A stretch of 64,000 nucleotides of DNA from Minisyncoccota bacterium (GCA_021734445.1 JAIPIY010000001.1:185306-249305); one strand, 5' to 3'; positions 14,306-56,113 are shown, counted from the stretch's first letter. Made by a program: numbers and translations. Notes: generated by a model not told the origin, from the sequence alone.

Positions 14306-16225
14306 CTAACGAAATTGCAAAAATGTTGATCTTGCCATTCTACGAATAGCCTCTTCCAACACGCTTTCATGGGTCGTAATCAGTAGGGTGTTTTCATTGA
14401 GAAAAGTATACAGCAAAACGGTTTCTTGTTCGTCATAAGTCGGCACAAATTGTGATTCTGTATCGAGAATAATTTTTTCCACATACTGATCCAAAGATTC
14501 TAAAAACCTCACCACCATTTCATCCGTAGAATTTGTCTGGGCAACCAATACATCTTCTTCTCCTATGCGGGCACATGCATTTACTCGATAGGTTGCCGCT
14601 GACAATCCCTGCAGTGATTGTTCAACAACGGAATCTGGCAATAGAGGACAACTGTTTGATCTATCAATAATCAAATCATCTCCTGATGGCGTAGTGAACA
14701 ACAGGGGAAAAATAATCGGTGCAGAAATTTCTTCTTCTAAGACAACACCTACAATAACTCCGTCATCTTGTACAGAAACTTCTTCTGTAGTTTCTTCTAT
14801 TACTTCTTCTGTAGTAATAGGTTCTTCGGTAGTATTTTCAGATTCAGAATTTGATTCCAGTCCAATATCAGACTCAACTCCATCTCCATCCAAAGAAATC
14901 TCAGAATCTTCTTGTGTTTCAACAACCGGCATATAAGTGCCTTGTAATAGAATAGTTTCTGGATACCAAATTAAAATATCTGATATCGCAAAAGATTCTA
15001 ACCGTGTATTTTCAAATGTTCGAGGTATCGCATCTGTTTCTCGAGAAACCAAAGCAGTATTAAACTGTGCACGTCTAATGTTGCGATTTTTCCAAAGAAC
15101 ATTTTCAAAAGGTGCACGTTCATAGGTCATACGCAAAGCATCGGGAGGTAATCCAAAAAGATTTTTTACATCAGCAATTAATGTATCTTCCCAAATTTGC
15201 ATTCCAGAAAATGCATTATCATAGGTGCTTACTCGAAGAACCATAAACGGATAATTTTGTGCACCAGAAAAAATACCATACATAAATGGAGATTCTTCCA
15301 ATGTTCCCAAAAATCCTAATGGTGCTTTTATTTGTAATGTCTCCAAGAATTGTTTGCTGGTCAACGGTCGGCTTCCTAAGCCTTCTGGAATAACAGGATG
15401 TAATGCAATAACAGAATTAAAAGTATATGCAGAAGAAAGAACTTCTTTTATTTTTGTTGCACTATCTAATAATGCAATACCTACGGGAAATGATATTACT
15501 GCATAATCATCAGAAGGTAGCAGTGTTGGTGCGCCTGCCTGATTATTTTGTTGCAACAAATTAATATTGGTAAATTTTGGTAGAACAAAAAACATTACAA
15601 TAAAGATGGCGCCAGCAAAAAATAAAAATGACCCAATGCCATAAAAAATGTTTTTTGTTGTAAATTTTGCATCTTGTTTTTTTTGTTGCTCTTCTTCATG
15701 CACAGTATCAAAAACGGTTGCAATCGTTGTTGGGTCACTGGTGGTGGTTACATGTTGTACATCACTGAAGTATGTTCGCATTGCAGAATCTTTTTTGGGC
15801 ATCAGCGTAGGATCACGCAATGGATCTTTTTGTCGTTCACGCTCATAGTCTTCGAATGAAACTTTTTCAGCATGCAGTGCATCGGCAAATTCTGGATGTT
15901 CGGTTGCAACCGTATCACCCGCACGAAGAACATCCACCAACGCAGGATCAGATGCATGTTCTAGCATGGTTACATCAACTACAGATTCTTTATCTTCTTC
16001 GGGAGTAACAGCATCTTCTCCTTGGGGAACAGAAAAGGAAATACCACCTACATCTTCTTGTTCTGCGTTTACTAATTCTTCATCTTGCTTGTTTACGATA
16101 CGAGAAGGTTCAATAGTATTATTAACATCAAACAAAGGATTATATTCCTGAGTTTCATCAAAAGATGTCGGTATAAAAAATTTCGCCTTTTTGAGAGAAG
16201 ATTGTGCATCTTTTTCATTGTCCAT
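14306..16225 (-). CDS. Hypothetical membrane protein with an acidic low-complexity region
   Basis: 639 aa with one clear TM segment (FYGIGSFLFFAGAIFIVMFFVLP) and an E/T/S-rich segment. No recognisable domain. Confidence 0.45.
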   Translation of the reverse strand: MDNEKDAQSSLKKAKFFIPTSFDETQEYNPLFDVNNTIEPSRIVNKQDEELVNAEQEDVGGISFSVPQGEDAVTPEEDKESVVDVTMLEHASDPALVDVLRAGDTVATEHPEFADALHAEKVSFEDYERERQKDPLRDPTLMPKKDSAMRTYFSDVQHVTTTSDPTTIATVFDTVHEEEQQKKQDAKFTTKNIFYGIGSFLFFAGAIFIVMFFVLPKFTNINLLQQNNQAGAPTLLPSDDYAVISFPVGIALLDSATKIKEVLSSAYTFNSVIALHPVIPEGLGSRPLTSKQFLETLQIKAPLGFLGTLEESPFMYGIFSGAQNYPFMVLRVSTYDNAFSGMQIWEDTLIADVKNLFGLPPDALRMTYERAPFENVLWKNRNIRRAQFNTALVSRETDAIPRTFENTRLESFAISDILIWYPETILLQGTYMPVVETQEDSEISLDGDGVESDIGLESNSESENTTEEPITTEEVIEETTEEVSVQDDGVIVGVVLEEEISAPIIFPLLFTTPSGDDLIIDRSNSCPLLPDSVVEQSLQGLSAATYRVNACARIGEEDVLVAQTNSTDEMVVRFLESLDQYVEKIILDTESQFVPTYDEQETVLLYTFLNENTLLITTHESVLEEAIRRMARSTFLQFR

Positions 16226-24065: not shown

Positions 24066-25038
24066 ACACTTCTGGCACTTTTTACTAAAATTAGTAAATG
24101 TCAGTACAAATGCCAAAAACTACACAAGAAGAACGATTACGATGGATATTACCCATCATTAACAAAGAAATGAAGCTCATTGAGGTAGCCAAGATATGCC
24201 CTCATTCACCCCGAAGTTTAAAACGATGGAAGAAGGCATATGATCTCCATGGAATGCAAGGACTCATACCACAAAGTACAAAACCAAAGACTCACCCGAA
24301 TGAAACCCCCATACGTATCAAAGAACAGGTCATTGCAAAGAGAAAAGAGACCAAACTCTGTGCATTGAAGATACATTGGAAACTTAAAAAACAAGGGATC
24401 ATTGTTCCCATCAGTACCACAAGTAAAATCCTCAAAGATGCAGGGCTTGTGAAGAAATACCGAACCAAGAAAATCAAATACAAACATATTAAGGTACAAC
24501 GACAACCAGGAGAACTCGTCGAAATTGATGTCAAACATGTCCCTGGTGGCATACAAGGCAAGAAATACTACCAATATACTGCCATTGATACTGCATCACG
24601 ATGGAGACATCTCGAGATATTTGATCAAGAGAGTACGTTCCACTCAGTTTCCTTTTTAAAGATGGTGATGCAGAAATTTCCCTACACCATCAAAGCAATC
24701 AAAACAGACAATCACGCTACGTTCACAAACTACTACCTTGGTACCAACAAACGGAGTGATGTGACCGTGAAGACACTCCATGCTTTAGATGTGTTCTGTA
24801 TGGAAAACAACATGGTGCACTACCTCATTGATCCAGGAAAGCCAACCCAAAATGGTACCGTTGAACGAAGTCATGGTGAAGACAATCGAAAGTTCTACCA
24901 GCAAGAGTCATTCTCTTCAGTGCATCAGCTCAAAAACAAGATTCGTATTTGGAATACCTATTACAATGATCTTGAACATTGTAGCTTAGGTGGAAAAACT
25001 CCTAATGAGGTGTTAGAATTAAAGTGACAGAAGTGGTT
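24066..25038 (+). mobile_element. IS481-family insertion sequence, about 0.97 kb
   Basis: Imperfect terminal inverted repeats acacttctgGcacttt (24067-24082) and aaagtgaCagaagtgg (25021-25036; 15/16 match) bracket a single DDE transposase gene. The right IR overlaps the ORF stop. Confidence 0.6.
24098..25027 (+). CDS. IS481-family DDE transposase (HTH + rve integrase core)
   Basis: N-terminal HTH (LIEVAKICPHSPRSLKRW) and an rve core containing ...YTAIDTASRW...IKTDNHATF...NGTVERSHGEDNR... Confidence 0.85.
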   Translation: MSVQMPKTTQEERLRWILPIINKEMKLIEVAKICPHSPRSLKRWKKAYDLHGMQGLIPQSTKPKTHPNETPIRIKEQVIAKRKETKLCALKIHWKLKKQGIIVPISTTSKILKDAGLVKKYRTKKIKYKHIKVQRQPGELVEIDVKHVPGGIQGKKYYQYTAIDTASRWRHLEIFDQESTFHSVSFLKMVMQKFPYTIKAIKTDNHATFTNYYLGTNKRSDVTVKTLHALDVFCMENNMVHYLIDPGKPTQNGTVERSHGEDNRKFYQQESFSSVHQLKNKIRIWNTYYNDLEHCSLGGKTPNEVLELK

Positions 25039-26708: not shown

Positions 26709-27635
26709 ATGAAAACCCTCCAAGAATGGAAACGAGAATTTCTTGAATATTTGGAAATCGAAAAAGGTCGAGCCATAAAAACAATTCAGAACTATGATCA
26801 TTATCTGACTGTTTTTATCAATCAGACAAAAGTCACCACACCCGAAGATGTCACATCTCCATTGGTTCGGGATTTTCGACTGTGGTTAAATAGACAGTCA
26901 TCAGGAAACAATCGCGCCACAGGTGCGACCATGTCAAAAAAAACTCAGAATTATTATTTGATTGCTATTCGTTCTTTTCTCAAATACATGACAAAACATG
27001 GTTGCAAAACAATGTCTGCAGATCAAATAGAATTAGCAAAAATAGGAGAACGATCTATTGATATTATTTCTGATACAGAATTACAAAGATTATTAGATGC
27101 ACCAGATGCCGAAGAAAATACTGAAATCAAATACCGAGACAAAGCAATTTTAGAAATGCTTTTTTCTACAGGGTTACGTGTATCTGAATTATGCTCTTTG
27201 ACCAACGACATTGATTTGTCTCGTGATGAATTTTCTGTACGCGGAAAAGGTGGCAAAGTTCGTGTAGTATTTTTATCCCCTGATGCAAAAACTGCCTTAC
27301 AAAAATATTTCAAAGAACGCAAGGATTTTTCAGATGCACTATTTGTCAGCGTTTCACAAAATAAAAACAAGGTAGATGCGAACAAAGGATTAGATAGAAG
27401 ATCTATTGAACGTATTGTAAAAAGATACGCAACTCTTGCTGGTATTACAAAAAAAGTAACCCCCCATGTTATCAGACATTGCTTTGCTACAGACCTTCTA
27501 TCCAACGGAGCTGACATTCGATCGGTGCAGGTAATGTTGGGTCATGCCGATATTTCAACCACCCAGATTTACACGCACGTTACGGATGCAAAACTAAAAG
27601 AGGTACATCAAAGATTTCATGGGAAGAAAAAATAG
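26709..27635 (+). CDS. Tyrosine site-specific recombinase (XerC/XerD-like)
   Basis: N-terminal SAM-like core-binding domain. The C-terminal catalytic motifs include the arginine in ...TGLRVSELCSL... and ...HVIRHCFATDLLSNGADIRSVQVMLGHADISTTQIYTHV (H-x-x-R ... Y). Confidence 0.85.
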   Translation: MKTLQEWKREFLEYLEIEKGRAIKTIQNYDHYLTVFINQTKVTTPEDVTSPLVRDFRLWLNRQSSGNNRATGATMSKKTQNYYLIAIRSFLKYMTKHGCKTMSADQIELAKIGERSIDIISDTELQRLLDAPDAEENTEIKYRDKAILEMLFSTGLRVSELCSLTNDIDLSRDEFSVRGKGGKVRVVFLSPDAKTALQKYFKERKDFSDALFVSVSQNKNKVDANKGLDRRSIERIVKRYATLAGITKKVTPHVIRHCFATDLLSNGADIRSVQVMLGHADISTTQIYTHVTDAKLKEVHQRFHGKKK

Positions 27636-27655: not shown

Positions 27656-28414
27656 CTATTTTTGGATTTGCCTTGCACCCAACCAAGCAAGTTCAAATAT
27701 TTTTCTTTGTGCATCAGTTATTTCTTTACTCTCTACAACAACTGCAAATTTTTCTTTCCAGGAAATTACCAGCAACTTATTATCATAAATATTTGTTTCT
27801 GTCGTAAAATAAAAATCATTTTTGGGAACCAATAGTGATTCTCGTAAATTTTCTTTATCATATTTTATAATTTCTTTACTGACTTCATCATCGGGTGCAA
27901 TAACCCTGACCTTGATATTTCTAGATGCTTTTTTCTTTGAATATTCTTTGAAATATTCTGGATCAATTGCATCAAACATACTTGTTCCAACAGCATAGAC
28001 CAGTATTTCAGTTTTTGATTGTAATGTATCTTCAAAAGCTTCTTTTATTTCTTGTATTCCTGTATAAAATTTTACAGAGGGTTTCTCTTTTTCATAAAAC
28101 AGAGATAACAATTCAGGTAACAGCGTAACAGCATTTTTTAGTTTTTTTTCTTCTTGTTCAAGGCTTTGTTCTAAAAAAGAAACTAATTTCCGAGGATTTT
28201 CTGCTATAAATTTTTGTATTTTTGCATTATTTTGAATCGTGACAACTTTTTTTCTGATAAGGTTTTCCAAAATATCGTAACACGTGGTACGATTTATTTT
28301 TGATTTCCTGGCAATAACAGTTGCCGTAGCAGGCCCCAATTCTAATAATGCCAAATATACATCAGCTTCACGAGAGCTAAAACCCAGTTGTATTAATTGT
28401 GATGAAGTAACCAT
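27656..28414 (-). CDS. TrmB-family transcriptional regulator
   Basis: N-terminal wHTH LGFSSREADVYLALLELGPATATVIARKSKINRTTCYDILENL plus the TrmB C-terminal domain. The start is placed at the internal Met. Confidence 0.7.
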   Translation of the reverse strand: MVTSSQLIQLGFSSREADVYLALLELGPATATVIARKSKINRTTCYDILENLIRKKVVTIQNNAKIQKFIAENPRKLVSFLEQSLEQEEKKLKNAVTLLPELLSLFYEKEKPSVKFYTGIQEIKEAFEDTLQSKTEILVYAVGTSMFDAIDPEYFKEYSKKKASRNIKVRVIAPDDEVSKEIIKYDKENLRESLLVPKNDFYFTTETNIYDNKLLVISWKEKFAVVVESKEITDAQRKIFELAWLGARQIQK

Positions 28415-28774
28415 GGCTGCATTATATACTATATGACATATATTGTCGATTAATATCCACACATATTTTTATCTATTTAGATATTATAAAATAATGGTTT
28501 ATTGATATTCTGATATAATTTTGTCGTATATAATTGACAAATACTTATTTTATTACTATAATAATAGTGAACTTAATGAACCTTAAAAACAAAAAAATGA
28601 ATCCAGAAATCTTAAATGACGTTAATATTGATACCGTGCTTAATGCACTACTTATTCACTTAATTGTAACTACTATAATTATTAGTATTTTGACGAGTGG
28701 TCCATCTAAACCAAAAGATAAGAACGAGGAAGAGGATTAATATAAACAATCTTTAAACTAAAAACAGATTTAAA

Positions 28775-32763: not shown

Positions 32764-33540
32764 TTAAACTTTTGGTAAAGAATTCCAAAGCAATTTGAAC
32801 ATTGCTTGTAATAAACCTTGCATAACATTGTCTCTAATAAGAACAATCTTTATTTCTTTGCCATCTGCACGAATAAGACCAATAGTATTTCCAAATATTA
32901 TAAATACACCCGGAATAGAAACCTTTTCTTCGAGAAAACGAAAATCTCGAAATTTTCCAATTCTTTCACTCATTTTTTTATATTTAAGAACAGATCTATC
33001 AGTAATAGAATATGCTGTCGTGTTAAATTCCATTCTGCGCAAAGAGTATAGTTTATATAGCTGCTCAACAGAAAAAACATTAAACATCGTATCCATAGTA
33101 CCGAACCAATAGACATCAGATCTCTCATTTAGCATTTTTTCAATTAAAACTAGGATGCCAGGTTTTCCTTCAAGGGTTTCAACATCAGTTTTTTCATTAA
33201 CATTTTTATCTAAATTTTCTACAAGAGAAATCATATTTTCTACAAAACCTTCTTTTCTTTGCAACTCTTCTTTTTCTTCATTTATGAATACGCGAAGCGT
33301 CTGTGGTTCTGCGATGCCGAGGAGCGTTCTCTTCCCTTTTCTTTTTTCAATAAGCAATCCTTTCTTTTTTAATTCTTCAAGCTCAAGATACACAGTAGTC
33401 CTTTTTATATTTATCAAGCGTGAAATTTGCGAAGGATTCAAAAATCCTTCTTTTGCAAGCACGCTATATACAAGAGATTGTTTTTCAGTTAATCCCAGAG
33501 CCTTCTTTGCTAAGCTATTTATTTCCTTAAGTGTCGACAT
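32764..33540 (-). CDS. TrmB-family transcriptional regulator (second copy)
   Basis: wHTH LTEKQSLVYSVLAKEGFLNPSQISRLINIKRTTVYLELEEL plus the TrmB C-terminal domain. Confidence 0.65.
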   Translation of the reverse strand: MSTLKEINSLAKKALGLTEKQSLVYSVLAKEGFLNPSQISRLINIKRTTVYLELEELKKKGLLIEKRKGKRTLLGIAEPQTLRVFINEEKEELQRKEGFVENMISLVENLDKNVNEKTDVETLEGKPGILVLIEKMLNERSDVYWFGTMDTMFNVFSVEQLYKLYSLRRMEFNTTAYSITDRSVLKYKKMSERIGKFRDFRFLEEKVSIPGVFIIFGNTIGLIRADGKEIKIVLIRDNVMQGLLQAMFKLLWNSLPKV

Positions 33541-34027: not shown

Positions 34028-35542
34028 TTATTTCTTTACTCCATGCTTTTTGTGAAGTTTCGCTTTTTCTTCTTCATCAACGGTTTCTTTTTTTTCTTTC
34101 CCTTGATCCCCTAATTGTTTCAATTCCCCATCAGATAATTTTTCTAATTCTGTTACACGTGAAACAAGATATTCAATAGTATTTTTTGTAGGATCTTCTA
34201 TGATTTCTTCTAACAATGCATGTAGCATCCAACCCATACGTGGACCCGGTTTCATATGCATTTCTTTGATCATATAACCACCATCGATTTTTAGCTGTGA
34301 AACACTGATTGGGTCGCGCAAAGTCTCTTCGATCATTGCAAAATATTTTCGCAGACGGTATGGAGCTTCTTTTTTCTTCATACCTACACGGTCACATTCG
34401 CGAATGCGCATTAATTCCCAAATAGCATGATCTTCACGTGAAACATCTTTTTCTACATCTGTTGGTGCCATATTATTAATCATTCTTCGCACGGGAGATA
34501 GGGTTATTATTTCGGTATCCGAGAAAAACATATGCCAACGAACCAGCCGTGAAACTATTTCAATATCTTTTTTAGGGAATTTCAATCGTGACATAATATC
34601 TTTTGCCATTCGTGCACCCACTACCTCGTGCCCAAAGAAAGTATACTTATCTTTGTTTTTATCATATCGTCTGGTTCGTGGTTTTCCAATGTCATGAAAC
34701 AATGCAGCCAGTTTCACATGAAACGAATAGTTTTTATCAGCAGCATGCTGTAATGCATGACAAAGATGATCAAACACATCATATATATGTGCACCTTTTT
34801 GTTCGCATTTTATTCCCTCTAATAGTTCAGGAATAATATATTGCATCAGCCCTAGTTTCACGAGAAACCCAATACCCACGGATGGTTCACGTGAAACAAT
34901 AATTTTTACAAATTCATCACGAATTCTTTCACGTGAAACCTTTTCCAATAGATTAGCATTCTCGAAAATTGCCTGCATTGTTTCATGTGAAACAGAAAAC
35001 CCTAATTGAGCCGAAAAACGTACTGCTCGCATCATACGTAATGCATCTTCTTTGAATCTTTCGTCAGGATTTCCCACTGCTCTAACGGACATGTCTTTTA
35101 TATCCTCATGTCCTTTATATAAATCAATCAAATGTCCGATAGACAGATCGTACGCCATGGCGTTTATGGTAAAGTCCCGACGCATCAAATCGTCCTCTAA
35201 TTTTTTACTGAATACTACCTGATCAGGATGTCGATGGTCGGTGTATCCAACGTCTAGACGATATGGGGTAATTTCCACGGTACGAATATTCGAATCAGCA
35301 TCTTCGGTTTCATCTACAATACCCACCGTCCCAAATGTATTTTCATACACAACCCGAAAACCAGCGGTTTCAAAAACCTGCATAATTTGTTCAGGGTTTG
35401 CATCAGTTGTAATATCCCAATCATTTGGGGTTCGCCCCATAATCATGTCACGTACACAACCACCCACCAGATATGCTTCGTATCCAACTGATTGCAATGT
35501 CTTTATTTGAGCTATAATTTTTTCTGGCACCTGAAATTCCAT
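34028..35542 (-). CDS. cca: CCA-adding tRNA nucleotidyltransferase with an HD domain
   Basis: Pol-beta NT motif YLVGGCVRD...DWD and the HD motif LAALFHDIGKP. 504 aa. Confidence 0.9.
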   Translation of the reverse strand: MEFQVPEKIIAQIKTLQSVGYEAYLVGGCVRDMIMGRTPNDWDITTDANPEQIMQVFETAGFRVVYENTFGTVGIVDETEDADSNIRTVEITPYRLDVGYTDHRHPDQVVFSKKLEDDLMRRDFTINAMAYDLSIGHLIDLYKGHEDIKDMSVRAVGNPDERFKEDALRMMRAVRFSAQLGFSVSHETMQAIFENANLLEKVSRERIRDEFVKIIVSREPSVGIGFLVKLGLMQYIIPELLEGIKCEQKGAHIYDVFDHLCHALQHAADKNYSFHVKLAALFHDIGKPRTRRYDKNKDKYTFFGHEVVGARMAKDIMSRLKFPKKDIEIVSRLVRWHMFFSDTEIITLSPVRRMINNMAPTDVEKDVSREDHAIWELMRIRECDRVGMKKKEAPYRLRKYFAMIEETLRDPISVSQLKIDGGYMIKEMHMKPGPRMGWMLHALLEEIIEDPTKNTIEYLVSRVTELEKLSDGELKQLGDQGKEKKETVDEEEKAKLHKKHGVKK

Positions 35543-35628
35543 ATAGCATAAAGTGTATACTAATTGGGTTGATTTTCAAAGCAAAACAGTATACACTTTG
35601 AAAGTCTTATCAAAGATGTGCAATATAT

Positions 35629-35700
35629 GCACCTGTGGTGAAATGGATATCACAACGGTCTTCGGAACCGTTATTCTAGGTTCGAATCCTGGCAGGTGCA
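35629..35700 (+). tRNA. tRNA-Arg (anticodon TCG), CCA not encoded
   Basis: Hand-folded cloverleaf: acceptor gcacctg/caggtgc, D-arm gtga-aatggata-tcac, anticodon arm acggt-cTTCGGa-accgt, T-arm ctagg-ttcgaat-cctgg, discriminator A. Confidence 0.75.
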
Positions 35701-35868
35701 CAAAAACAATCGAATACAATACAACGTATTTTATACGTATTGCTTTTGCAATGTGTCAGGATTTGAAAAAGTCGCCCGCAAAGCCGACAAAGTCGTAGGC
35801 GACGACGGGGTCGAGCGAATGAGATATTTTAAGTCCGCGCGACGGACGAAAAAATATCCATGAGGGTG

Positions 35869-35895
35869 ACTGAATCCTGGCAGGTGCACAAATAA
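35869..35895 (+). repeat. Direct repeat of the 3' 21-23 nt of tRNA-Arg (gaatcctggcaggtgcacaaa), about 170 bp downstream
   Basis: Exact match to 35682-35704. att-site-like duplication of the tRNA 3' end. Confidence 0.5.
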
Positions 35896-36001
35896 ATATA
35901 AAACAGTGAAACATACTATGTTTCACTGTTTTATATTTAGAGTAATAAAATAAAAAAAACCGCCAGCATTACCTGAAACGGATTTGGAGTCTCCCCCTAA
36001 A

Positions 36002-36280
36002 TTAATTATTCTTTGGAATTCTTTGTTCAAGTAGGTACACAGCAAGCCATAACAATGAAACAATAACCACTGACCAAAAAAACAAGCAACCGACACTTGC
36101 CATCACAAAAATAGCAAATATATTAAGAATATCAAAACTTTCAATGAATCGAATAAGTAATTTGAAAAGATCAAAAGTGCCATCCTTAAAAAAGATCCAA
36201 TATGGAACATAATAAAAAACAAAAAGGATGCACGTCCAAAAAAGAAAACTGAGAATTCCAGGAACAATTTTTGCCTTCAT
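36002..36280 (-). CDS. Small hydrophobic membrane protein (hypothetical)
   Basis: 92 aa, three TM-like stretches. AT-rich, so it may be spurious. Confidence 0.3.
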   Translation of the reverse strand: MKAKIVPGILSFLFWTCILFVFYYVPYWIFFKDGTFDLFKLLIRFIESFDILNIFAIFVMASVGCLFFWSVVIVSLLWLAVYLLEQRIPKNN

Positions 36281-36391
36281 GAATGCATGATGTTGGTTTC
36301 ATTTAGTGTCACTTTTTTATTAAATAAAGTCAATATATTAAGTAAAAAGATTGCATATTCATAAAAAAATAGCTATACTACAAAACGTTAT

Positions 36392-36407
36392 GCGGGTATG
36401 GTTTAGT
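36392..36407 (+). repeat. Duplicate of the first 16 nt of tRNA-Gly(GCC) (gcgggtatggtttagt), about 90 nt upstream of the intact gene
   Basis: Exact 16-nt match to 36479-36494, followed by an unrelated hairpin tccgccagaaaacaaggcgga. Confidence 0.4.
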
Positions 36408-36478
36408 TCCGCCAGAAAACAAGGCGGATAAAGTCCGAACACGTACGGTTAACATAATTACATAAAGCAACGACAAAT

Positions 36479-36549
36479 GCGGGTATGGTTTAGTGGTAGA
36501 ACACGTCCTTGCCAAGGATGAGTCGGGAGTTCGATTCTCCCTACCCGCA
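36479..36549 (+). tRNA. tRNA-Gly (anticodon GCC), CCA not encoded
   Basis: Acceptor gcgggta/tacccgc, anticodon arm cgtcc-tTGCCAa-ggatg, T-arm gggag-ttcgatt-ctccc. Followed by a long hairpin terminator at 36555-36594. Confidence 0.85.
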
Positions 36550-37303
36550 CAAAAACACAAAAGTCTGAATATTATAATATTCAGACTTTTGTGTTTAACC
36601 CAGAAAGAAAATGAATCAAAATAAGATGATCAGCTGGAGATTATATAAATTGCTTTAAAGTACATCTATAGAATCTAACGGACATATGTGATACATGTCC
36701 GTTATTACCACGTTTTTCTTTAGATTAATACAATAATAAAAGACACCATCCTGAAAAATCCCCTGAAATCAACAAATTGTGGATATCTCTGTGTACACGG
36801 TGCACAAATAACACATTTTTATAAACGACACAAGATGTCTTTTATACTAAAAACCGTAAAAAAGCCTTATCCTACAACACCCCACCGTTTTTTCACATAA
36901 ATATTGTTTTTTAAGGGATTTTTACTATTCACAGATATCAAAGTGTTTCACGTGAAACATATGTAAAAATACACAAAATGTTACATGTGAAACACTATTT
37001 TTATACTAAAAGCTGCTGACATAGTTTCACGTGGCACAAATTAGAGATATTTAGTCTGAGCATATTAAAAAGTTTCATGTGAAGCAAAACTCTGGTTCAT
37101 AAATTAGTTTAACATGAAACTTTTATAAGAAATCAAAAATCCCAGATTCCCGAATACTCGGGAATGACAAATGAGACATAATAGTCCATCTCCATCACTT
37201 TCAGCGAATAAAAATAACTTATGGCAAATAAAATCCCGATACATATACTTGTTTCACATGAAACGCAAAAGTAGTATAATAAAAACACCTGAAAAGGTTT
37301 CAC

Positions 37304-37708
37304 ATGAAACAATTTACATCAAAAACACAGAAAATAGGGGAAATTGGTGAATCTTTGGCTTGCAAGTTTCTCGTGAAACATGGTTTTTCGATTATTGAGA
37401 GAAATCACACAAGAAAATGGGGTGAAATCGATATTATTGCGGAAAAGAGCAGCGTTTTGCATTTTGTCGAGGTAAAAACAGTTTCATGTGAAACAATTGA
37501 TAAAATAGGGAATGATCCAAAGTATATGCAAGTGATTCAGAACGTGCACACAAAGAAAGTTTCTCGTATGAAAAAGATTATTCAAACATACCTATTAGAG
37601 AATAACGTTTCACATGAAACCAAATGGCAATTTGATATTATTGCTGTTCATCTGGAAAAAGATCACAATCGTGCAAAAATTACTATACTAGAGAATATCA
37701 TCCTTTAA
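37304..37708 (+). CDS. YraN-family (UPF0102) predicted endonuclease
   Basis: GEIGESLACKFLVKHGFSIIERNHTRKWGEIDIIAEK...HFVEVKT matches the YraN core and has an insertion. The ATG is at the centre of a GTTTCACATGAAAC palindrome. Confidence 0.7.
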   Translation: MKQFTSKTQKIGEIGESLACKFLVKHGFSIIERNHTRKWGEIDIIAEKSSVLHFVEVKTVSCETIDKIGNDPKYMQVIQNVHTKKVSRMKKIIQTYLLENNVSHETKWQFDIIAVHLEKDHNRAKITILENIIL

Positions 37709-37856
37709 TATTATAAGGAGAGGTACCTTTATTTGATTTGCGTTTTCGACGTTCTTCATGTATCATTGTTGTGTACTTTGAGAAAATATGAGAATAGAGA
37801 ACAATGGTAAATATGTTAATTTTAAAGAGTGAAACATTTTATTTTTTGTGACATAT

Positions 37857-37896
37857 GTCGGGGTGTGGTGTAACGGCTAACATGCTGGTTTTGGGG
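37857..37896 (+). repeat. Copy of the 5' half (about 40 nt) of tRNA-Pro, 30 nt upstream of the intact gene
   Basis: tcggggtgtggtgtaacggctaacatgctggttttggg is identical to 37926-37965, then diverges. Confidence 0.55.
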
Positions 37897-37926
37897 AATA
37901 ATAGAATGTACTTTTATAATTTGTGT

Positions 37927-37999
37927 CGGGGTGTGGTGTAACGGCTAACATGCTGGTTTTGGGTACCAGTGACTCTGGGTTCGAATCCCAGCACCCCGA
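37927..37999 (+). tRNA. tRNA-Pro (anticodon TGG), CCA not encoded
   Basis: Acceptor cggggtg/caccccg, anticodon arm ctggt-tTTGGGt-accag, T-arm ctggg-ttcgaat-cccag, discriminator A. Confidence 0.85.
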
Positions 38000-38055
38000 C
38001 AGAGATTGTAATGTGCTTTGTGTATTATTCCAGATGTCCGGGGGACATCTGTGGC

Positions 38056-38088
38056 CCAAAGGGCAGTGACTCTGGGTTCGAATCCCAG
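38056..38088 (+). repeat. Copy of the 3' 33 nt of tRNA-Pro (variable loop, T-arm and acceptor), about 55 nt downstream of the intact gene
   Basis: gtgactctgggttcgaatcccagcaccccgaca is identical to 37969-38001, with no matching 5' acceptor strand. Confidence 0.55.
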
Positions 38089-38207
38089 CACCCCGACATA
38101 CGCCGTAAGAAATTTTGTTGTTCTTATTCATATGTGCAAGAAATCTCATTACTGTAACTAGGTTTATAATTTATTAAAAATTACACAAAACCCTAACAAT
38201 AATCATT

Positions 38208-43047: not shown

Positions 43048-43914
43048 ATGAATATAACAATGATTCTCTCAGCTCTGTTTATTTCTCTTACCTCTTTTTC
43101 TGGGGCACTATTTGCTTCACAAAAAGCATACTCTTGGCTTTTTGAAAAAAAGAACATCAAATTTTTAATTACTTTCTCTGCAGGTATTTTTGGAACAACT
43201 GCAATTTTACTATCTTTTGAGACTTTTGAAATGTTGTCAAAAACTCAAGCTCTGATTGCGGTAATTTCTGGTTTTGTATTCATGTTAATATTGCACAAAT
43301 TATTACCAGAAAGTCATCATCATGATACTAAATGTCCCAACTGTGAACCAAAAATAAAGAAGACGGGGATTAAAATTTTAGTAGGAGACACTATTCATAA
43401 TATTGCCGATGGTCTTGTTCTTATCTCTGCATTTAGTGTTTCAAAAGAATTTGGTTTTTTTGTCACGATAAGTATTTTGATTCATGAAATCATCCAAGAA
43501 ATTTCTGAATATTTTGTTTTACGAGATTCTGGTTTCTCAAGAAAGAAAGCTCTAGCTTTTAACTTCTTGTCATCTTTGTCTATCTTTGTTGGGATTTTAA
43601 TTGGATATGTATTAATCCAAAATGAAACAATCCAAGCAGTCTTGTTAGGTTTTTCAGCTGGTATATTTTTACACATCGTCTTTCATGATCTGCTTCCGTA
43701 TCACGAACTACAAAAAAATGATACTAAAAATTCTTGGAAACATATTCTGGTTTTATGTTTGGGTATTGGAATTATGATATTAATTAATATTGCAACACCG
43801 CATACTCATACACACAATGATGCAGAACATATGCGTGAAACAAATACCGATCATACACATTTTGAAGATGAAATGATGCATGAAGATAGTTTAGATCATC
43901 ATCATATAGATTAA
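43048..43914 (+). CDS. ZIP-family divalent metal transporter (ZupT-like) with a His-rich C-terminus
   Basis: IHNIADGLVL and LIHEIIQEISEYFVL correspond to the ZIP HNxxDG and HExxxE metal-binding helices. Divergent from the Fur-family gene. Confidence 0.65.
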   Translation: MNITMILSALFISLTSFSGALFASQKAYSWLFEKKNIKFLITFSAGIFGTTAILLSFETFEMLSKTQALIAVISGFVFMLILHKLLPESHHHDTKCPNCEPKIKKTGIKILVGDTIHNIADGLVLISAFSVSKEFGFFVTISILIHEIIQEISEYFVLRDSGFSRKKALAFNFLSSLSIFVGILIGYVLIQNETIQAVLLGFSAGIFLHIVFHDLLPYHELQKNDTKNSWKHILVLCLGIGIMILINIATPHTHTHNDAEHMRETNTDHTHFEDEMMHEDSLDHHHID

Positions 43915-44234
43915 TCGACTTTTGATGACTATTTTTGCATTAAGTTCACGCACTATATTCATGTCATTCGCTTTCACGAAAATAATACATATGAAACATA
44001 ATAGATAAACTTGTTTCACACACTGTGAAACTCTACATAAGCCCATGAATCGTATAATAATGAATCATAGTATCTTTTTTAATGAGATATAAGTTTCACA
44101 AAACATAAGAACATTGCTTTTATGTGAACAAGGTCTACAAGAGCTGTGTTTCACGAAAAATCATGCCAGGGGGTGCAAAAAAATCTAAAATGTGTATAAT
44201 AGAAATGTTCAAGAAGGTGCAACAGCCAAATAAT

Positions 44235-44369: not shown

Positions 44370-46451
44370 GTGTATAATATACATATGAACGAGAGAATCC
44401 CATTAAACAGTAAAGCTCTCCAACAAGAAGGTGCCCCTGAGACCTTTTTAGACGAGATCTCAGAAAAAGCACGACATGACAATATAGAAGATGAATATTT
44501 AAGTTTTAAAAACGGTTTAAGTAAATATAATCTATCTAATCCAAATCTAAAATCTTATGTTCAAGAAGTTTTTTCTAACAGGGATTTAACCCTGCAGTTA
44601 AGTTTCCTATTAGAGATTTATCCAATAATGATGGGAGTAAGCGATACAATCAGTGATATTTTAGATAGTATATCAGACTTTGAGCTAAAAGATTCTCATT
44701 CTTTTGAAAGAAAGTATTATAAACATGTTGAATCGGAGGTTATGAATCTTAAAAAGCTTTTTGATATATTATCGGGAATTAAGTTAGACAAAGATGCTCC
44801 GGCTTTCGTAAGTCTTCTAAAAAAGATAGCAGAGAAAGAAATACTCGAAGCATTTTTATACCACAGCAATCATAATCCGGACACAAAACTCCATGAATAT
44901 TATTCTGAAAAAAGTAGCGAATATAATCAAGAGTATGTATATCCTGGTTTACCAGTTTATAATATCTACCCACAAAAAATTTCAAATGATTTTTGGGGTT
45001 ACACAGAAGATGGTAAACTTATGATTGCTCGTTCTTCACCAGAAAAAACGTTAGCACTTGAAAATTTAGAAAGAGAAATAAATACTAAATTATCTAATGT
45101 AAAAGAGTCTGTAAGTTTATCTAATTTATTTTCAAAAAGAAATAATATTCTTAAAGAAATAGAAAAAAGAAAAGCTAAACCTATCACAGTGAATGATGTA
45201 TATCGTAGTTCTACTATAGAAAAAACATCAGAAGAGCTCACAAAAGAATTTATGTTCCTAAAGAACATGAGTGGTTTTTTAGGAAGTTATTTAAAAGTTG
45301 ATTTCTTAAAATTGTCATTAGGTGAAACTTTTTTGGTTTTACAATATTTGGAAACCAAGAACGAGGAATCCTTAAACAAAGTTTTAAAAATTGCAAGTAA
45401 ATTTCCAGCAAACAATAATTTTTGGAAGACCTTTCTCTCTATTGAACATGGCGGGCAAGAAATGGGAGATAAGATTCTCACCATTGGTGAAAAATTACCA
45501 AAAAATATCGCAGAAAAAGTGTTTACAAAATATAGTGAATATATTGATGCAGTTGAAAACACAGATAATTTTGTTACTGAACTATATACAAAACAAAAAC
45601 CAAAACCCGAAGTAGTACAAAAAATCAAAGAAAACCTTCTTGTAAAAGGGAAGAATATATTACTTTCTCAATATGAAAAAATCCAAACGGGAACATTTGA
45701 TGAAAAAAAATTCCAAGAGTTTATAGATGGGGCAAAAGCGGATATTGACCTATTCAAAAATACATTCAAAATTACCCTAGAAGAAAATCCTGACACAAAT
45801 TTTGAAGATTTTTTGGGAATGAGAACAGAGATGAAACCTGGTACAGAAATCGAGCAATCGACCATACAAAGCATTGACACTATAATCGAAAAGAATTACA
45901 AAGAAGAAGAACTTCGAAATTCAGTTAAAAATTCATTTCATCAATCTCTTCATCATCCAACAACCCAAGTTTCAGTATTAAAACGAGAAGATAAGATTAT
46001 CGCATCAAATCGAATTGATTTCAAAGAAGATGGTACATTGTATTTTGGTACATTTAATGTTGACCCAGATTATTGTAGTTCTAAAATAGGTGATGCGTTT
46101 TTCAAAGCGACGATACTTCCTTATATGGAAAAACACGTCATCCAAGCAGATTGTTCTGCCCGTCAACCTATTAGCGCATATTATATTGAATCTGGATTTA
46201 TTGGTACTGCATTATATGATTATAATGGTGAACCATCTCTTTCAATAGAAACAACTTTGGATTCAGTTTTTGATTCAAAAAAACTTTCAAAAAAAGAGGT
46301 ACTCGACCTCCTTGACTCTGGTGATACAAAATATACTATAAGAAAGTTCGCTAACCAAGAAGATATTACCCACAACTATCCTGCTGATAAAAAATTAACC
46401 CGATTTTTCTTTGATAGAAATTCTAAAGAATGGATTGCTCTTTGGGAGTAA
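44370..46451 (+). CDS. Large Lys/Glu-rich hypothetical protein
   Basis: 693-aa uninterrupted ORF with no recognisable motif. Its 3' end overlaps the convergent TrmB gene by 29 nt. Confidence 0.45.
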   Translation: MYNIHMNERIPLNSKALQQEGAPETFLDEISEKARHDNIEDEYLSFKNGLSKYNLSNPNLKSYVQEVFSNRDLTLQLSFLLEIYPIMMGVSDTISDILDSISDFELKDSHSFERKYYKHVESEVMNLKKLFDILSGIKLDKDAPAFVSLLKKIAEKEILEAFLYHSNHNPDTKLHEYYSEKSSEYNQEYVYPGLPVYNIYPQKISNDFWGYTEDGKLMIARSSPEKTLALENLEREINTKLSNVKESVSLSNLFSKRNNILKEIEKRKAKPITVNDVYRSSTIEKTSEELTKEFMFLKNMSGFLGSYLKVDFLKLSLGETFLVLQYLETKNEESLNKVLKIASKFPANNNFWKTFLSIEHGGQEMGDKILTIGEKLPKNIAEKVFTKYSEYIDAVENTDNFVTELYTKQKPKPEVVQKIKENLLVKGKNILLSQYEKIQTGTFDEKKFQEFIDGAKADIDLFKNTFKITLEENPDTNFEDFLGMRTEMKPGTEIEQSTIQSIDTIIEKNYKEEELRNSVKNSFHQSLHHPTTQVSVLKREDKIIASNRIDFKEDGTLYFGTFNVDPDYCSSKIGDAFFKATILPYMEKHVIQADCSARQPISAYYIESGFIGTALYDYNGEPSLSIETTLDSVFDSKKLSKKEVLDLLDSGDTKYTIRKFANQEDITHNYPADKKLTRFFFDRNSKEWIALWE

Positions 46452-47205
46452 TAGACCAAAGATATTCAAAAACCGCTTTGTGCATTTTGTAGATAGAAGC
46501 ATCTTCGATAATAACTCCGATCATTGAATTTTCTTTTAACGTTATATAGGATATTTTATTTTCATAAATTTGCATAATCGTTTCAAATTCAAGGGCGTCA
46601 AATTTTGCAAATTTTGTTTCTGTTATTTCTGTATGGTATTCTTTGATCGTTGCACGAGCCTGTGGTGTATCCAACATCATACCTTTTTTCTGTATTCCTA
46701 TTTTTTTTCTTTCCTGTGTATATTCTTCGTTTATTTTAGGAATATATTTCATGACAGCGTCTAAATCAACATAGGTGTATATTACTGTTTCTTTAGGAAC
46801 AGTCAGAGTATCCCACAACACCTTTCGTATCCCACTTAGCCCTTCATAAAACTGAATATTGGGTTTATCTGACAGTAAATTATATTTTGAAACAAATGAT
46901 CCCAAAGAAACAGCCACGGTTTCTTTTGATAAGGTGATTGCTTTTTCTTTTTGTTCAATAAAGCGCAGTATCTGAGAAGGGTGCTCTGGAAAAAAAACTG
47001 CAACGCTACCAGAACCACCTTTTTTTGAAACTAACAACATTCCCTCTAATTGTTCTAACACCTTGTATACTAGACTTCTTTTGATTCCAGTCCATGTTGC
47101 TAATACACTGGCCTTTTGTGGACCTTTTTCTAATAGGGCATTATAAATCAATGCTTGTTCTTCAGACAAACCAGCTTCGATAAGTATATTTTCTTCAGCA
47201 ATCAT
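46423..47205 (-). CDS. TrmB-family transcriptional regulator (third copy)
   Basis: wHTH LSEEQALIYNALLEKGPQKASVLATWTGIKRSLVYKVLEQL plus the TrmB C-terminal domain. Confidence 0.65.
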   Translation of the reverse strand: MIAEENILIEAGLSEEQALIYNALLEKGPQKASVLATWTGIKRSLVYKVLEQLEGMLLVSKKGGSGSVAVFFPEHPSQILRFIEQKEKAITLSKETVAVSLGSFVSKYNLLSDKPNIQFYEGLSGIRKVLWDTLTVPKETVIYTYVDLDAVMKYIPKINEEYTQERKKIGIQKKGMMLDTPQARATIKEYHTEITETKFAKFDALEFETIMQIYENKISYITLKENSMIGVIIEDASIYKMHKAVFEYLWSITPKEQSIL

Positions 47206-55132: not shown

Positions 55133-56113
55133 TTAATACAAAGAGATTTTCAAGCTTTTTTGAAGATTATATGTATTCCCGTGGCTCAATAGCCCTCGAT
55201 ATGAATTTACTGTTTCAGGTTTTGGATAATTTCTAAGGTTTTTTATCACCTTTCGCTTGGTTGTTGTTCTTATCTGACGATAATGAGGAAAATGTACCCA
55301 GCCCAAGAAATCAACGCCCGAAGCATATGTTTTTATGTACACTTTATCTGGATGAAGCTGTAATTTTAACGTGTTATTTAAAAATAAGTTTATGTTAGAT
55401 AATAAATTTTCAAGATATTTTTTGTCTTGAGACAAAATAACGAAATCATCAGCATATCGAATATAATACCTTACCCGAAGTTCTTGTTTCATATACATAT
55501 CAAACTCATGCATATAAATATTCACAAGCAACTGCGATGTCAGATTCCCCAGTGGCAACCCAACACCTTCTCGAGTTATCTGAAAGCTTTTTATCACTTG
55601 ATGTATCAACCACAACATCTCATCATCTGCAATATGTCGTTTTAAAATAGATTTTAGTACATCATGATCAATACTTGCAAAAAATTTTCTCACGTCACAT
55701 TTTAAAACGTAACATGTTTTTGTATTATTTTTTGATACTTTATTTGCGAACACCTTAAATCTTTCAAACGCCCGATGGGTACCTTTATATTTACGACATG
55801 AATATGAGTCATAAATAAATCTATCATCAAAATACCAATACAATTCTTTATAAATTAAATGATGTACCACCCTATCACGAACAATTGCTTTATGAATATT
55901 TCTTGGTTTAGGGTCAGAAACATTAAATGCAAAATATCCTGAATGTTCGTAGGTTCTTGTATGTAACATAGTATGTAGTTCTATAATATTATCTGCAAGA
56001 TGTGCTTCAAATTCCATGACATCTTTTTTATTACGCTTGCCACGGATAAAACGCCCCCATGTCGAGAGAATATTTTCTATTGATATGATATTATGATAAG
56101 TATGAGTGAACAT
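55133..56113 (-). CDS. Diversity-generating retroelement (DGR) reverse transcriptase
   Basis: RT motifs 1-7 are present, including YADDFVIL. The DGR-specific motif-4 signature GLPLGNLTSQLLVNIY (SQ instead of SP) is also present. 326 aa, adjacent to the TR/VR pair. Confidence 0.8.
   Translation of the reverse strand: MFTHTYHNIISIENILSTWGRFIRGKRNKKDVMEFEAHLADNIIELHTMLHTRTYEHSGYFAFNVSDPKPRNIHKAIVRDRVVHHLIYKELYWYFDDRFIYDSYSCRKYKGTHRAFERFKVFANKVSKNNTKTCYVLKCDVRKFFASIDHDVLKSILKRHIADDEMLWLIHQVIKSFQITREGVGLPLGNLTSQLLVNIYMHEFDMYMKQELRVRYYIRYADDFVILSQDKKYLENLLSNINLFLNNTLKLQLHPDKVYIKTYASGVDFLGWVHFPHYRQIRTTTKRKVIKNLRNYPKPETVNSYRGLLSHGNTYNLQKSLKISLY

What the first reader, a model, noticed from the sequence alone, without database searches (positions are those of the whole stretch)
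34430..37625. Local over-representation of the palindrome GTTTCAC(G/A)TGAAAC, including in-frame copies inside cca and yraN
At least eight full copies occur at 34711, 34980, 36945, 37251, 37297, 37481 and 37607, with degenerate copies at 34434, 34885, 34927, 36981, 37025 and 37072. Many half-sites also lie within about 3.2 kb around the tRNA-Arg, tRNA-Gly and tRNA-Pro genes.
- Inside cca the motif recurs four times in the frame giving V-S-R-E (KVSRERI, IVSREPS, DVSREDH, SVSHET). In yraN it gives VSCET and VSHET.
- The third frame would create TGA, so only stop-free frames are used. This indicates selection at the DNA level despite coding constraints.
- Such behaviour is typical of protein-binding sites or uptake/recognition sequences.
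- The motif is not evident in the first 30 kb of the window.
Basis: seen in the sequence. Interest (0 to 1): 0.6.

Follow-up and report, generated by a model that had tools for sequence, protein, structure and literature searches.

The report
Dense parS centromere array in Paceibacteria
The repeated palindrome is the standard bacterial centromere site parS, which the segregation protein ParB binds; 17 copies sit in and between the cca and yraN genes of a candidate-phyla-radiation bacterium, so this is a known kind of element in an unusually dense, conserved setting.

Summary
Seven exact copies and 17 copies with at most 2 mismatches of GTTTCACRTGAAAC lie between 34152 and 37620. Only one weak match occurs in the other 60 kb, and shuffles predict about 1.65 strand matches.

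The motif is the core of the canonical 16-bp parS site (consensus TGTTNCACGTGAAACA). Positions 36944-36959 match the perfect palindrome TGTTTCACGTGAAACA 16/16.

The window comes from a Patescibacteria (Paceibacteria/Parcubacteria) genome. In 48 related genomes (GC 29-58%), 177 such sites lie almost only within -3 to +2.5 kb of the cca start. They sit inside a conserved block: tRNA-Gly(TCC), tRNA-Pro, yraN, tRNA-Gly(GCC)/tRNA-Arg, cca. Outgroups have none.

The clade encodes a canonical ParB carrying the parS-specific DNA-contact residues. On one 501-kb contig, parB and a yraN-cca parS array occur together, about 200 kb apart.

The best explanation is a chromosomal centromere array that loads ParB. 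"Uptake sequence" is wrong. The stop-codon argument is a tautology, although selection at the DNA level is supported by other evidence.

This is a new member of a known kind, of moderate-to-low interest.

The parts
34151..34166 (.). parS-like site in cca (TGTTACACGTGAAACA, 1 mismatch to the 16-mer TGTTTCACGTGAAACA); codes VSRV
34430..34445 (.). degenerate parS in cca (ATCTTCACGTGAAACA, 3 mismatches; one perfect half-site); codes VSRE, in an insertion that most homologues lack
34710..34725 (.). parS in cca (AGTTTCACATGAAACG; 14-mer core exact); codes FHVK in the second stop-free frame
34854..34869 (.). parS-like site in cca (AGTTTCACGAGAAACC); codes FLVK
34883..34898 (.). parS in cca (TGGTTCACGTGAAACA, 1 mismatch); codes VSRE
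34925..34940 (.). parS in cca (TCTTTCACGTGAAACC, 2 mismatches); codes VSRE within the conserved [VI]SxER motif
34979..34994 (.). parS in cca (TGTTTCATGTGAAACA, 1 mismatch); codes VSHET, a peptide present in 60 of 121 aligned sequences (the query plus 120 homologues)
36944..36959 (.). perfect 16/16 consensus parS TGTTTCACGTGAAACA, intergenic
   Evidence: literature
36979..36994 (.). parS-like site, intergenic (TGTTACATGTGAAACA)
37023..37038 (.). degenerate parS, intergenic (AGTTTCACGTGGCACA)
37071..37086 (.). degenerate parS, intergenic (AGTTTCATGTGAAGCA)
37106..37121 (.). degenerate parS, intergenic (AGTTTAACATGAAACT)
37250..37265 (.). parS (TGTTTCACATGAAACG); its TTCACA is the -35 hexamer of the best promoter-like match upstream of yraN (TTCACA-N16-TATAAT, 37253-37280)
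37296..37311 (.). parS (GGTTTCACATGAAACA) whose central ATG (37304) is the yraN start codon
37365..37380 (.). parS-like site in yraN (AGTTTCTCGTGAAACA); codes FLVK
37480..37495 (.). parS in yraN (AGTTTCATGTGAAACA); codes VSCET
37606..37621 (.). parS in yraN (CGTTTCACATGAAACC); codes VSHET
34028..35542 (-). cca (CCA-adding tRNA nucleotidyltransferase with HD domain); hosts 7 sites
37304..37708 (+). yraN (UPF0102 family); hosts 3 sites plus one over its start codon; transcribed divergently from cca
35629..36550 (+). tRNA-Arg(TCG) 35629-35701 and tRNA-Gly(GCC) 36479-36550, with a 92-aa ORF between them; conserved occupants of the yraN-cca spacer across the clade
43835..44154 (.). secondary mini-cluster of parS half-sites and degenerate sites upstream of tRNA-Gly(TCC); includes the split palindrome GTTTCAC-N5-GTGAAAC at 44013-44031
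   Evidence: P(>=5 half-sites in 400 bp) about 2e-8 per 400-bp window at the background rate

Best explanation
The motif is parS, and the 3.5-kb cluster is the chromosomal centromere-like ParB loading region of a Patescibacteria (Paceibacteria) genome.

Inferred mechanism, from the established behaviour of ParB: ParB dimers recognise each 16-bp palindrome through their helix-turn-helix. They bind CTP, close into clamps and slide onto neighbouring DNA. This builds a partition complex that organises and segregates the region and probably loads SMC. Many sites packed together raise the loading rate and give redundancy.

The array occupies a gene block that is very stable in this clade: tRNA-Gly(TCC), tRNA-Pro, yraN, tRNA-Gly(GCC)/tRNA-Arg, cca. 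Sites were therefore written into the coding sequences of cca and yraN. They use the two stop-free readings, V-S-R/H-E-T and F-H/L-V-K, at positions where the proteins tolerate those residues.

Shown here: the sequence identity with parS; the extreme local confinement; conservation of the array at this locus across a class-level clade; the presence of a canonical ParB with parS-type contact residues in the clade; and both on one contig.

Inferred only: actual ParB binding, spreading, SMC loading, and proximity to the origin.
For: 1. Sequence identity.
- 36944-36959 is TGTTTCACGTGAAACA. That is the published parS of Hyphomonas and matches the general consensus TGTTNCACGTGAAACA.
- The other sites differ by 1-4 bases.
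- Across relatives, the flanking positions favour T at -1 and A at +14, each at 53%, so the conserved unit is the 16-mer.

2. Confinement.
- 17 of 18 sites lie in 3.5 kb.
- Half-sites elsewhere occur at the random rate.

3. Conservation of place.
- In 48 Paceibacteria cca loci (755 kb, GC 0.29-0.58), 177 sites with at most 1 mismatch lie between -3 kb and +2.5 kb of the cca start. One exception lies at about +4 kb.
- About 30 more distant Patescibacteria and non-Patescibacteria cca loci have none at that stringency.
- A relative with 95% identical cca has 18 sites in the same layout, although the spacer DNA is only about 80% identical.

4. Not a duplicated segment. Copies share only about 16-18 nt.

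5. DNA-level selection.

6. Cognate protein.
- A ParB family with ParB_N, HTH_ParB and ParB_C domains is labelled Candidatus Paceibacterota, Parcubacteria or Patescibacteria by NCBI.
- 178 of 181 members carry GKSR....N and GH.R at the spacing of Caulobacter R173/N178/G201/R204. The commonest specificity set is R-T-A-G, the same as in Caulobacter ParB (Jalal et al. 2020, PMC7383237).

7. Same replicon. JGI contig Ga0509788_07292 (501 kb) carries this parB at about 292 kb. It also carries a yraN-cca locus at about 492 kb with 11 parS-like sites in 2.5 kb. No site lies within 10 kb of parB.
Against: - No parB, parA or dnaA lies in the 64-kb window, nor within 10 kb of the locus in any of the 80 cca loci recovered from reference genomes. 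The cognate protein of this particular genome has therefore not been seen.
- Proximity to the origin is unproven. GC skew rises across the locus in 20 of 22 relatives and changes sign in the origin-like direction in 9. In the window the cumulative skew falls again after 51 kb. On the 501-kb contig the skew is negative on both sides of the locus.
- Most sites carry CACATG rather than CACGTG at the centre, which spoils the G1 contact of one half-site. Several intergenic copies have 3-4 mismatches, so some copies may bind weakly or not at all.
- The clade's ParB lacks the usual N-terminal GLGRGL peptide, and no parA lies beside it. A classical ParA-driven mechanism is therefore not assured.
Confidence: 0.9

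Rival explanations
1. The sites form an operator array for a transcription factor other than ParB, for example one of the TrmB-family HTH proteins encoded nearby. That factor would co-regulate yraN, cca and the tRNA genes.
For: - One site supplies the -35 hexamer of the best promoter-like match before yraN, and another covers its start codon.
- A TrmB-family gene lies just downstream of cca.
- Half-sites also precede tRNA-Gly(TCC).
Against: - The motif equals parS 16/16.
- Ten of the 17 copies lie inside ORFs, far from any promoter.
- The TrmB neighbour is not conserved beside the array in other genomes.
- A ParB with parS-type contact residues exists in the clade and on the same contig as such an array.
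- ParB could itself repress yraN, so a regulatory side effect does not need another factor.
Confidence: 0.04
2. The repeats belong to the replication origin, as non-canonical DnaA boxes or iterons. The parS resemblance is secondary.
For: - The 0.7-kb AT-rich spacer lies between divergent genes.
- The window has a local minimum of cumulative GC skew at about 36 kb.
- Skew rises across the locus in 20 of 22 relatives.
Against: - DnaA-box-like 9-mers are at chance level (25 against 23.9 expected), with only one in the spacer.
- No dnaA or dnaN lies within 10-30 kb.
- The skew does not switch at the locus on the 501-kb contig, and it falls again later in the window.
- Ten copies lie inside genes.
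- An origin nearby would be compatible with parS rather than an alternative to it.
Confidence: 0.03
3. The motif is a dispersed genomic repeat: a DNA uptake sequence, a REP/MITE-type element, or the product of a recent duplication of one segment.
For: It is a short, over-represented palindrome that also occurs in coding DNA, as uptake sequences do.
Against: - It is absent from the rest of the window and from the flanks of 48 related loci.
- Copies share no sequence beyond about 16-18 nt and have no terminal repeats or target duplications.
- Site positions inside cca and yraN are shared by homologues only 50-65% identical.
Confidence: 0.01
4. The enrichment is a by-product of protein sequence: conserved VSxE and FHVK peptides in cca and yraN happen to be encoded this way.
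For: - [VI]SxER and VSHET are conserved peptide contexts in cca homologues.
- The codons GTT, TCA, CGT/CAT and GAA are common in this genome.
Against: - Seven copies lie in non-coding DNA.
- 22 of 42 VS[RH]E peptides in the zone use exactly the parS codons, where codon usage predicts a few percent.
- Homologues without a site have unrelated residues at most of these columns, for example MSPEP or DSKNP in place of VSREP.
- Outgroup cca genes have no sites.
Confidence: 0.01

Closest known systems
Chromosomal parS sites of the ParB/Spo0J (ParABS) system, e.g. Bacillus subtilis, Caulobacter, Hyphomonas neptunium
   Same: The 16-bp palindrome is identical (TGTTTCACGTGAAACA is the Hyphomonas site; the consensus is TGTTNCACGTGAAACA). 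There are several copies on the chromosome and some lie inside genes. A ParB with the same HTH contact residues is present.
   Different: The copy density is much higher (17 in 3.5 kb, against 2-10 per genome in those species). The array is far from parB (about 200 kb on one related contig). Most copies have a CACATG centre.
Multi-site parS arrays, e.g. Myxococcus xanthus (22 sites); the Streptomyces coelicolor cluster is cited in the same review without a site count being read here
   Same: Many parS copies serve one chromosome (the review's Table 1, lists 22 for M. xanthus).
   Different: From my own knowledge, those arrays lie next to parAB near oriC. Here the array sits in a tRNA/yraN/cca block with no par genes nearby, in a genome likely under 1 Mb. 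Seven copies are packed into a single 1.5-kb gene.
Orphan ParB-parS of Streptococcus pneumoniae (no ParA)
   Same: parB has no adjacent parA. In S. pneumoniae the role of ParB is mainly SMC recruitment. That is a plausible model for these bacteria.
   Different: S. pneumoniae has 4 sites close to oriC. Whether Paceibacteria lack ParA altogether was not tested. Their ParB also lacks the N-terminal peptide and has a distinct conserved C-terminal tail.
Half-parS binding by Pseudomonas aeruginosa ParB
   Same: GTTTCAC heptamers are known ParB targets. The window has a half-site mini-cluster at 43.8-44.15 kb.
   Different: In P. aeruginosa there are hundreds of dispersed half-sites. Here half-sites are at background level except in two local clusters.

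Membership tests
parS / ParABS chromosomal centromere | 16-bp palindrome matching tGTTNCACGTGAAACa | tested here: met
   36944-36959 matches TGTTTCACGTGAAACA 16/16. Eleven sites are within 2 mismatches of that 16-mer and the rest within 3-4. Consensus.
parS / ParABS chromosomal centromere | Few, locally confined copies rather than genome-wide dispersal | tested here: met
   17 of 18 sites lie in 3.5 kb of 64 kb. In 48 related loci, 176 of 177 sites lie within -3 to +2.5 kb of the cca start.
parS / ParABS chromosomal centromere | A cognate ParB (ParB_N, HTH, C-terminal dimerisation domain) encoded in the same genome | not testable with these tools
   Only 64 kb of this genome is available and it holds no ParB. 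In a related genome, parB and the yraN-cca parS array lie on the same 501-kb contig. The ParB family is labelled Paceibacterota/Parcubacteria.
parS / ParABS chromosomal centromere | ParB HTH carries the parS-specific contact residues (R173 invariant, G201 preferred, N178 and R204 conserved; Caulobacter numbering) | tested here: met
   178 of 181 clade ParBs match GKSR....N-x22-GH.R. The commonest specificity set is R/T/A/G. Criteria are from PMC7383237.
parS / ParABS chromosomal centromere | [quoted passage not shown] | tested here: inconclusive
   A local skew minimum and a rise in skew across the locus appear in 20 of 22 relatives. There is no dnaA or DnaA-box cluster nearby, and no skew switch on the 501-kb contig.
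parS / ParABS chromosomal centromere | A ParA ATPase partner | tested here: inconclusive
   No parA lies beside parB in three Patescibacteria loci. No deviant Walker A motif was found in any held cca locus. All 181 ParBs lack the N-terminal GLGRGL-type peptide. Whole genomes were not searched.
parS / ParABS chromosomal centromere | ParB binds the sites and spreads in a CTP-dependent way | not testable with these tools
   Needs ChIP-seq, or in vitro loading assays.
DNA uptake sequences (DUS/USS) | Hundreds to thousands of copies spread over the whole genome | tested here: not met
   background density equals the random expectation outside the locus.
DnaA-box cluster / oriC | A cluster of TTATCCACA-like 9-mers in an AT-rich spacer, usually beside dnaA or dnaN | tested here: not met
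   25 matches against 23.9 expected, with one in the spacer. No dnaA found.
Noc-binding site (NBS) | The palindrome ATTTCCCGGGAAAT and a Noc protein with Q173/K179/K184/R201 | tested here: not met
   The sequence is parS-type (GTTTCAC half-site) and the clade's protein has R173 and G201.
REP / MITE-type repeats | Copies share an extended unit with terminal repeats or flanking duplications | tested here: not met
   Similarity ends at about 16-18 nt.

The most novel reading that the evidence does not exclude
In Paceibacteria the centromere has been moved away from parB and fixed in a conserved tRNA-yraN-cca block. It is served by an orphan ParB that has lost the ParA-activating N-terminal peptide and gained a conserved C-terminal tail, LYNI(N/K)NF(T/S)(I/V/L). 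That would point to a ParA-independent way of organising or anchoring the chromosome through an unknown partner. ParB would also gate expression of yraN, whose promoter and start codon lie inside parS sites, and perhaps of cca and the tRNA genes.
Probability: 0.2. Interest if true: 0.55.

Novelty: new member of a known kind. Interest (0 to 1): 0.3.

Why it matters
The finding places the centromere of a large, uncultivated bacterial lineage, the Paceibacteria/Parcubacteria of the candidate phyla radiation, at a defined and easily recognised locus. No paper in the searched library connects ParB or parS with these bacteria.

Practical uses:
- a marker for the segregation/SMC-loading region when finishing or orienting CPR genomes;
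- a natural case of many protein-binding sites written into two essential-looking genes, useful for studying how DNA-level and protein-level constraints are reconciled;
- a pointer to an atypical ParB (no N-terminal peptide, a new C-terminal tail, no adjacent parA) that is worth biochemical study.

It does not reveal a new kind of system.

Tried and rejected
- Origin of replication. I tested DnaA boxes, dnaA homology and GC skew in the window, in 22 relatives and on the 501-kb contig. The result is suggestive in some genomes but not consistent, so it is left as inconclusive.
- ParB, ParA or DnaA near the locus. Pfam scans of about 50 window ORFs, motif regexes and tblastn with Spo0J, Soj, DnaA and Thermus Spo0J sequences recalled from memory found nothing within the window or within 10 kb in the 80 cca loci from reference genomes.
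- Literature on ParB or parS in CPR bacteria turned up nothing relevant.
- Classifying metagenomic ParB loci by similarity of their neighbours to Paceibacteria proteins was uninformative. A cluster look-up of ten ParB ids for organism names returned no taxonomy.
- What worked: a codon-biased DNA pattern for AGERRxRA on metagenome contigs, then an exact cluster look-up, then two ParB homology searches, then matching contig lengths between the ParB and cca hit lists.
- TrmB neighbour as the binding protein: rejected, because the adjacency is not conserved.
- Segment duplication or MITE: rejected.
- Rfam found only the four tRNAs.


Full report
**Observation.** The pattern GTTTCACRTGAAAC occurs exactly at 34711, 34980, 36945, 37251, 37297, 37481 and 37607. 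Shuffles predict 0.01 matches. With up to two mismatches there are 18 distinct sites, and 17 lie between 34152 and 37620. That is 36 strand matches against 1.65 expected, with a maximum of 8 in shuffles. Seven sites are inside the minus-strand ORF 34028-35542. Pfam identifies that ORF as a CCA-adding enzyme with PolyA_pol head, RNA-binding, HD and tRNA_NucTran2_2 domains. Seven sites lie in the AT-rich non-coding stretch 36944-37311. Three lie inside ORF 37304-37708, a UPF0102/YraN protein. The heptamer half-sites number 37 in the window: 21 in 34-38 kb, 5 in 43.8-44.15 kb, and 11 elsewhere. Those 11 match the random expectation of 8 +/- 2.8.

**Identity of the motif.** Extended by one base on each side, the copy at 36944-36959 is TGTTTCACGTGAAACA. 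A full-text search for that 16-mer returns only ParB/parS papers. A review of chromosomal ParB gives TGTTNCACGTGAAACA as the general parS consensus. It lists TGTTTCACGTGAAACA as the Hyphomonas neptunium site and GTTTCACGTGAAAC as the Mycobacterium smegmatis site, and it names GTTTCAC as a half-parS bound by several ParBs. The finding is therefore an array of canonical parS sites, the centromere-like loading sites of ParB/Spo0J.

**Not a duplicated segment or mobile repeat.** Copies align over only about 16-18 nt and the flanks are unrelated.

**Organism and conservation.**
- The cca protein has thousands of homologues at 60-67% identity. Sources label them Patescibacteria or Candidatus Paceibacterota.
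- A scan of one genome per species returned 80 cca loci. I scored all of them for the motif.
- In 48 Paceibacteria-type loci, labelled Paceibacterota, Nomura-, Kaiser-, Taylor-, Adler- and Campbellbacteria, there are 177 sites with at most one mismatch. These loci total 755 kb and span GC 0.29-0.58.
- All but one of those sites lie between -3 kb and +2.5 kb of the cca start. About 490 kb of the surrounding DNA has none apart from that one site.
- More distant Patescibacteria have none at that stringency: Yanofsky-, Andersen-, Staskawicz-, Portnoy- and Dojkabacteria. Neither do Clostridium or spirochaete loci.
- The gene context is conserved. yraN is transcribed divergently from cca in nearly all of these genomes. 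The same four tRNA genes accompany them: Gly-TCC and Pro-TGG beyond yraN, and Gly-GCC and Arg-TCG between yraN and cca.
- A close relative (cca 95% identical in protein) has 18 sites: 4 in yraN, 8 in the spacer and 6 in cca. Its spacer DNA is only about 80% identical and has a different gene inserted.

**Selection at the DNA level.** Better evidence follows.
- At the cca columns that hold sites in the window, an alignment of 121 sequences (the window's cca plus 120 homologues) shows either the parS-compatible peptide or unrelated residues. VSHET occurs in 60 of 121, FHVKL in 51 and VSREP in 15. Examples of unrelated residues are MSPEP, DSKNP and LEIRL. One site sits in an insertion that most homologues lack.
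- In the Paceibacteria loci, the peptide VS[RH]E occurs 42 times in the locus zone against 4 times in the much larger flanks. Of the 42, 22 are encoded exactly as GTTTCAC[GA]TGAA. Codon usage in this genome predicts a few percent.
- Half of the window's well-matched copies are non-coding.

**The cognate protein.**
- Neither the window nor any of the 80 cca loci from the reference-genome scan (+/-10 kb) encodes ParB, ParA or DnaA.
- To test whether the lineage has ParB at all, I scanned metagenome contigs with a codon-biased pattern for the ParB box AGERRxRA. About 60 ParB genes were recovered.
- One is identical to a Candidatus Magasanikbacteria ParB. Three form a distinct family.
- Homology searches with that family return proteins with ParB_N, HTH_ParB and ParB_C domains. 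Sources name them parB of Patescibacteria group bacterium, Candidatus Paceibacterota bacterium and Parcubacteria group bacterium.
- Jalal et al. 2020 showed that parS versus NBS specificity depends on positions 173, 179, 184 and 201. R173 is invariant and G201 preferred for parS, and N178 and R204 are conserved contacts. In 178 of 181 family members these positions read R, N, G and R at the right spacing. The commonest four-residue set is R-T-A-G, as in Caulobacter ParB.
- One ParB (P0318) and one cca homologue (P0074, 64% identical to the window's) shared a longest-contig length of 501,087 bp. Look-ups confirmed that both lie on JGI contig Ga0509788_07292, with parB at about 292 kb and yraN-cca at about 492 kb.
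- That yraN-cca locus has 11 parS-like sites in 2.5 kb. The 21 kb around parB has none. The other four loci of this ParB family that were scanned (L202, L204, L156 and L103; L089 also has none) likewise have no site; the Magasanikbacteria ParB locus L179 has a single 2-mismatch match.
- So a parS-type ParB and the array co-occur on one replicon in this clade, about 200 kb apart. For the window's own genome this remains an inference.

**Mechanism.** From the established behaviour of ParB (reviews), the most likely function is this. ParB dimers nucleate at the sites, become CTP-bound clamps, slide onto flanking DNA and form the partition complex that marks and organises this region, probably loading SMC. 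The high site density would give a high loading rate and robustness to loss of single sites. This matters where AT-biased mutation erodes the central CG: CACATG centres outnumber CACGTG by 89 to 68 in relatives and 9 to 6 in the window. Two sites overlap yraN expression signals. The TTCACA of the site at 37250-37265 is the -35 hexamer of the best promoter-like match (TTCACA-N16-TATAAT, 11 of 12). The ATG at the centre of the site at 37296-37311 is the yraN start codon. ParB occupancy may therefore also damp yraN expression, but that is speculation.

**Open points.**
- Origin proximity, a usual property of parS, is unresolved. The window has a local skew minimum at the array, but skew falls again after 51 kb. 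Skew rises across the locus in 20 of 22 relatives (Wilcoxon p = 4e-5) and switches sign in the origin-like direction in 9, never in the opposite direction. This may reflect the divergent gene pair. DnaA boxes are at chance level. On the 501-kb contig the skew is negative on both sides.
- The clade's ParB is atypical. None of 181 members has the N-terminal GLGRGL-type peptide. From my own knowledge, that peptide carries the ParA-stimulating residue in other ParBs. No parA lies beside parB in three loci; miaA is the conserved neighbour. In 171 of 181 members the protein ends in a conserved tail, LYNI(N/K)NF(T/S)(I/V/L), after an acidic linker. This resembles the ParA-less situation of Streptococcus pneumoniae more than the classical tripartite system.

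**Rivals.**
- Operator array for another regulator: it fits poorly with ten intragenic copies, and the neighbouring TrmB-family gene is not conserved there.
- Origin repeats: they lack DnaA-box support.
- Uptake sequences and REP/MITE elements: excluded by the confinement and by the lack of extended similarity.
- A purely protein-driven origin: excluded by the intergenic copies and the codon test.

**Novelty and verdict.** parS and multi-site arrays are well known; Myxococcus xanthus has 22 sites. Three things are new here. First, the lineage: no paper in the library links ParB or parS to Patescibacteria. Second, the density: 17 sites in 3.5 kb, seven of them in one gene. Third, the array is fixed in a conserved tRNA-yraN-cca block far from parB. 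That makes it a new member of a known kind. Confidence that this is a ParB-loading parS array is about 0.9. Interest is about 0.3.

Noticed in passing
window 35684-35892; 36390-36494; 37844-38098: Partial copies of tRNA genes sit beside the intact genes. The last 21 nt of tRNA-Arg recur 167 nt downstream (35872-35892), after a GC-richer spacer with no Rfam match. The first 18 nt of tRNA-Gly(GCC) recur 87 nt upstream (36390-36407). tRNA-Pro is flanked by a 5' partial copy (37844-37895) and a 3' partial copy (38064-38098). The close relative L207 has a different arrangement of the Pro fragments. This suggests repeated integration/excision or recombination at these tRNA genes.
   Followed up: partly
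loci L002-L047, the spacer between yraN and cca: The tRNA-Arg(TCG)/tRNA-Gly(GCC) pair keeps its place between yraN and cca across the clade, but it changes strand and order from genome to genome. This indicates recurrent small inversions inside the centromere region.
   Followed up: no
window 43835-44154: A second, weaker cluster consists only of parS half-sites and degenerate copies, upstream of tRNA-Gly(TCC). It includes a split palindrome, GTTTCAC-N5-GTGAAAC, at 44013-44031. The relative L207 has three half-sites at the equivalent place.
   Followed up: partly
window 35895-35937: A hairpin with a 20-bp stem, terminator-like on the minus strand, is built from two half-parS heptamers in everted orientation (GTGAAAC...GTTTCAC).
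   Followed up: no
proteins P0121, P0165-P0344; loci L202, L204, L209: The Paceibacteria ParB family lacks the usual N-terminal GLGRGL peptide (0 of 181). It ends in a conserved C-terminal tail, LYNI(N/K)NF(T/S)(I/V/L) (171 of 181), after an acidic linker. It has no parA beside it and is usually next to miaA. It may be an atypical, ParA-independent ParB with an unknown partner.
   Followed up: partly
window 55133-56113 (-): A 326-aa reverse transcriptase (RVT_1) is encoded next to clpP. It could belong to a retron, a group II intron or a diversity-generating element. It was not examined.
   Followed up: no
window 24098-25027 (+), 26709-27635 (+): An rve-type transposase/integrase and a tyrosine recombinase (Phage_integrase) lie 7-10 kb from the array. 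The recombinase is conserved in the relatives L207 and L210.
   Followed up: no
window 27656-28462 (-), 32764-33540 (-), 46423-47205 (-): The 64 kb holds three TrmB-family HTH proteins of about 260 aa. One lies directly downstream of cca, but that adjacency is not conserved in other genomes.
   Followed up: partly
window 15036-15049: A lone palindrome, GTTTCTCGAGAAAC (2 mismatches to the motif), lies inside the 639-aa ORF 14306-16225. It is probably a chance match.
   Followed up: no
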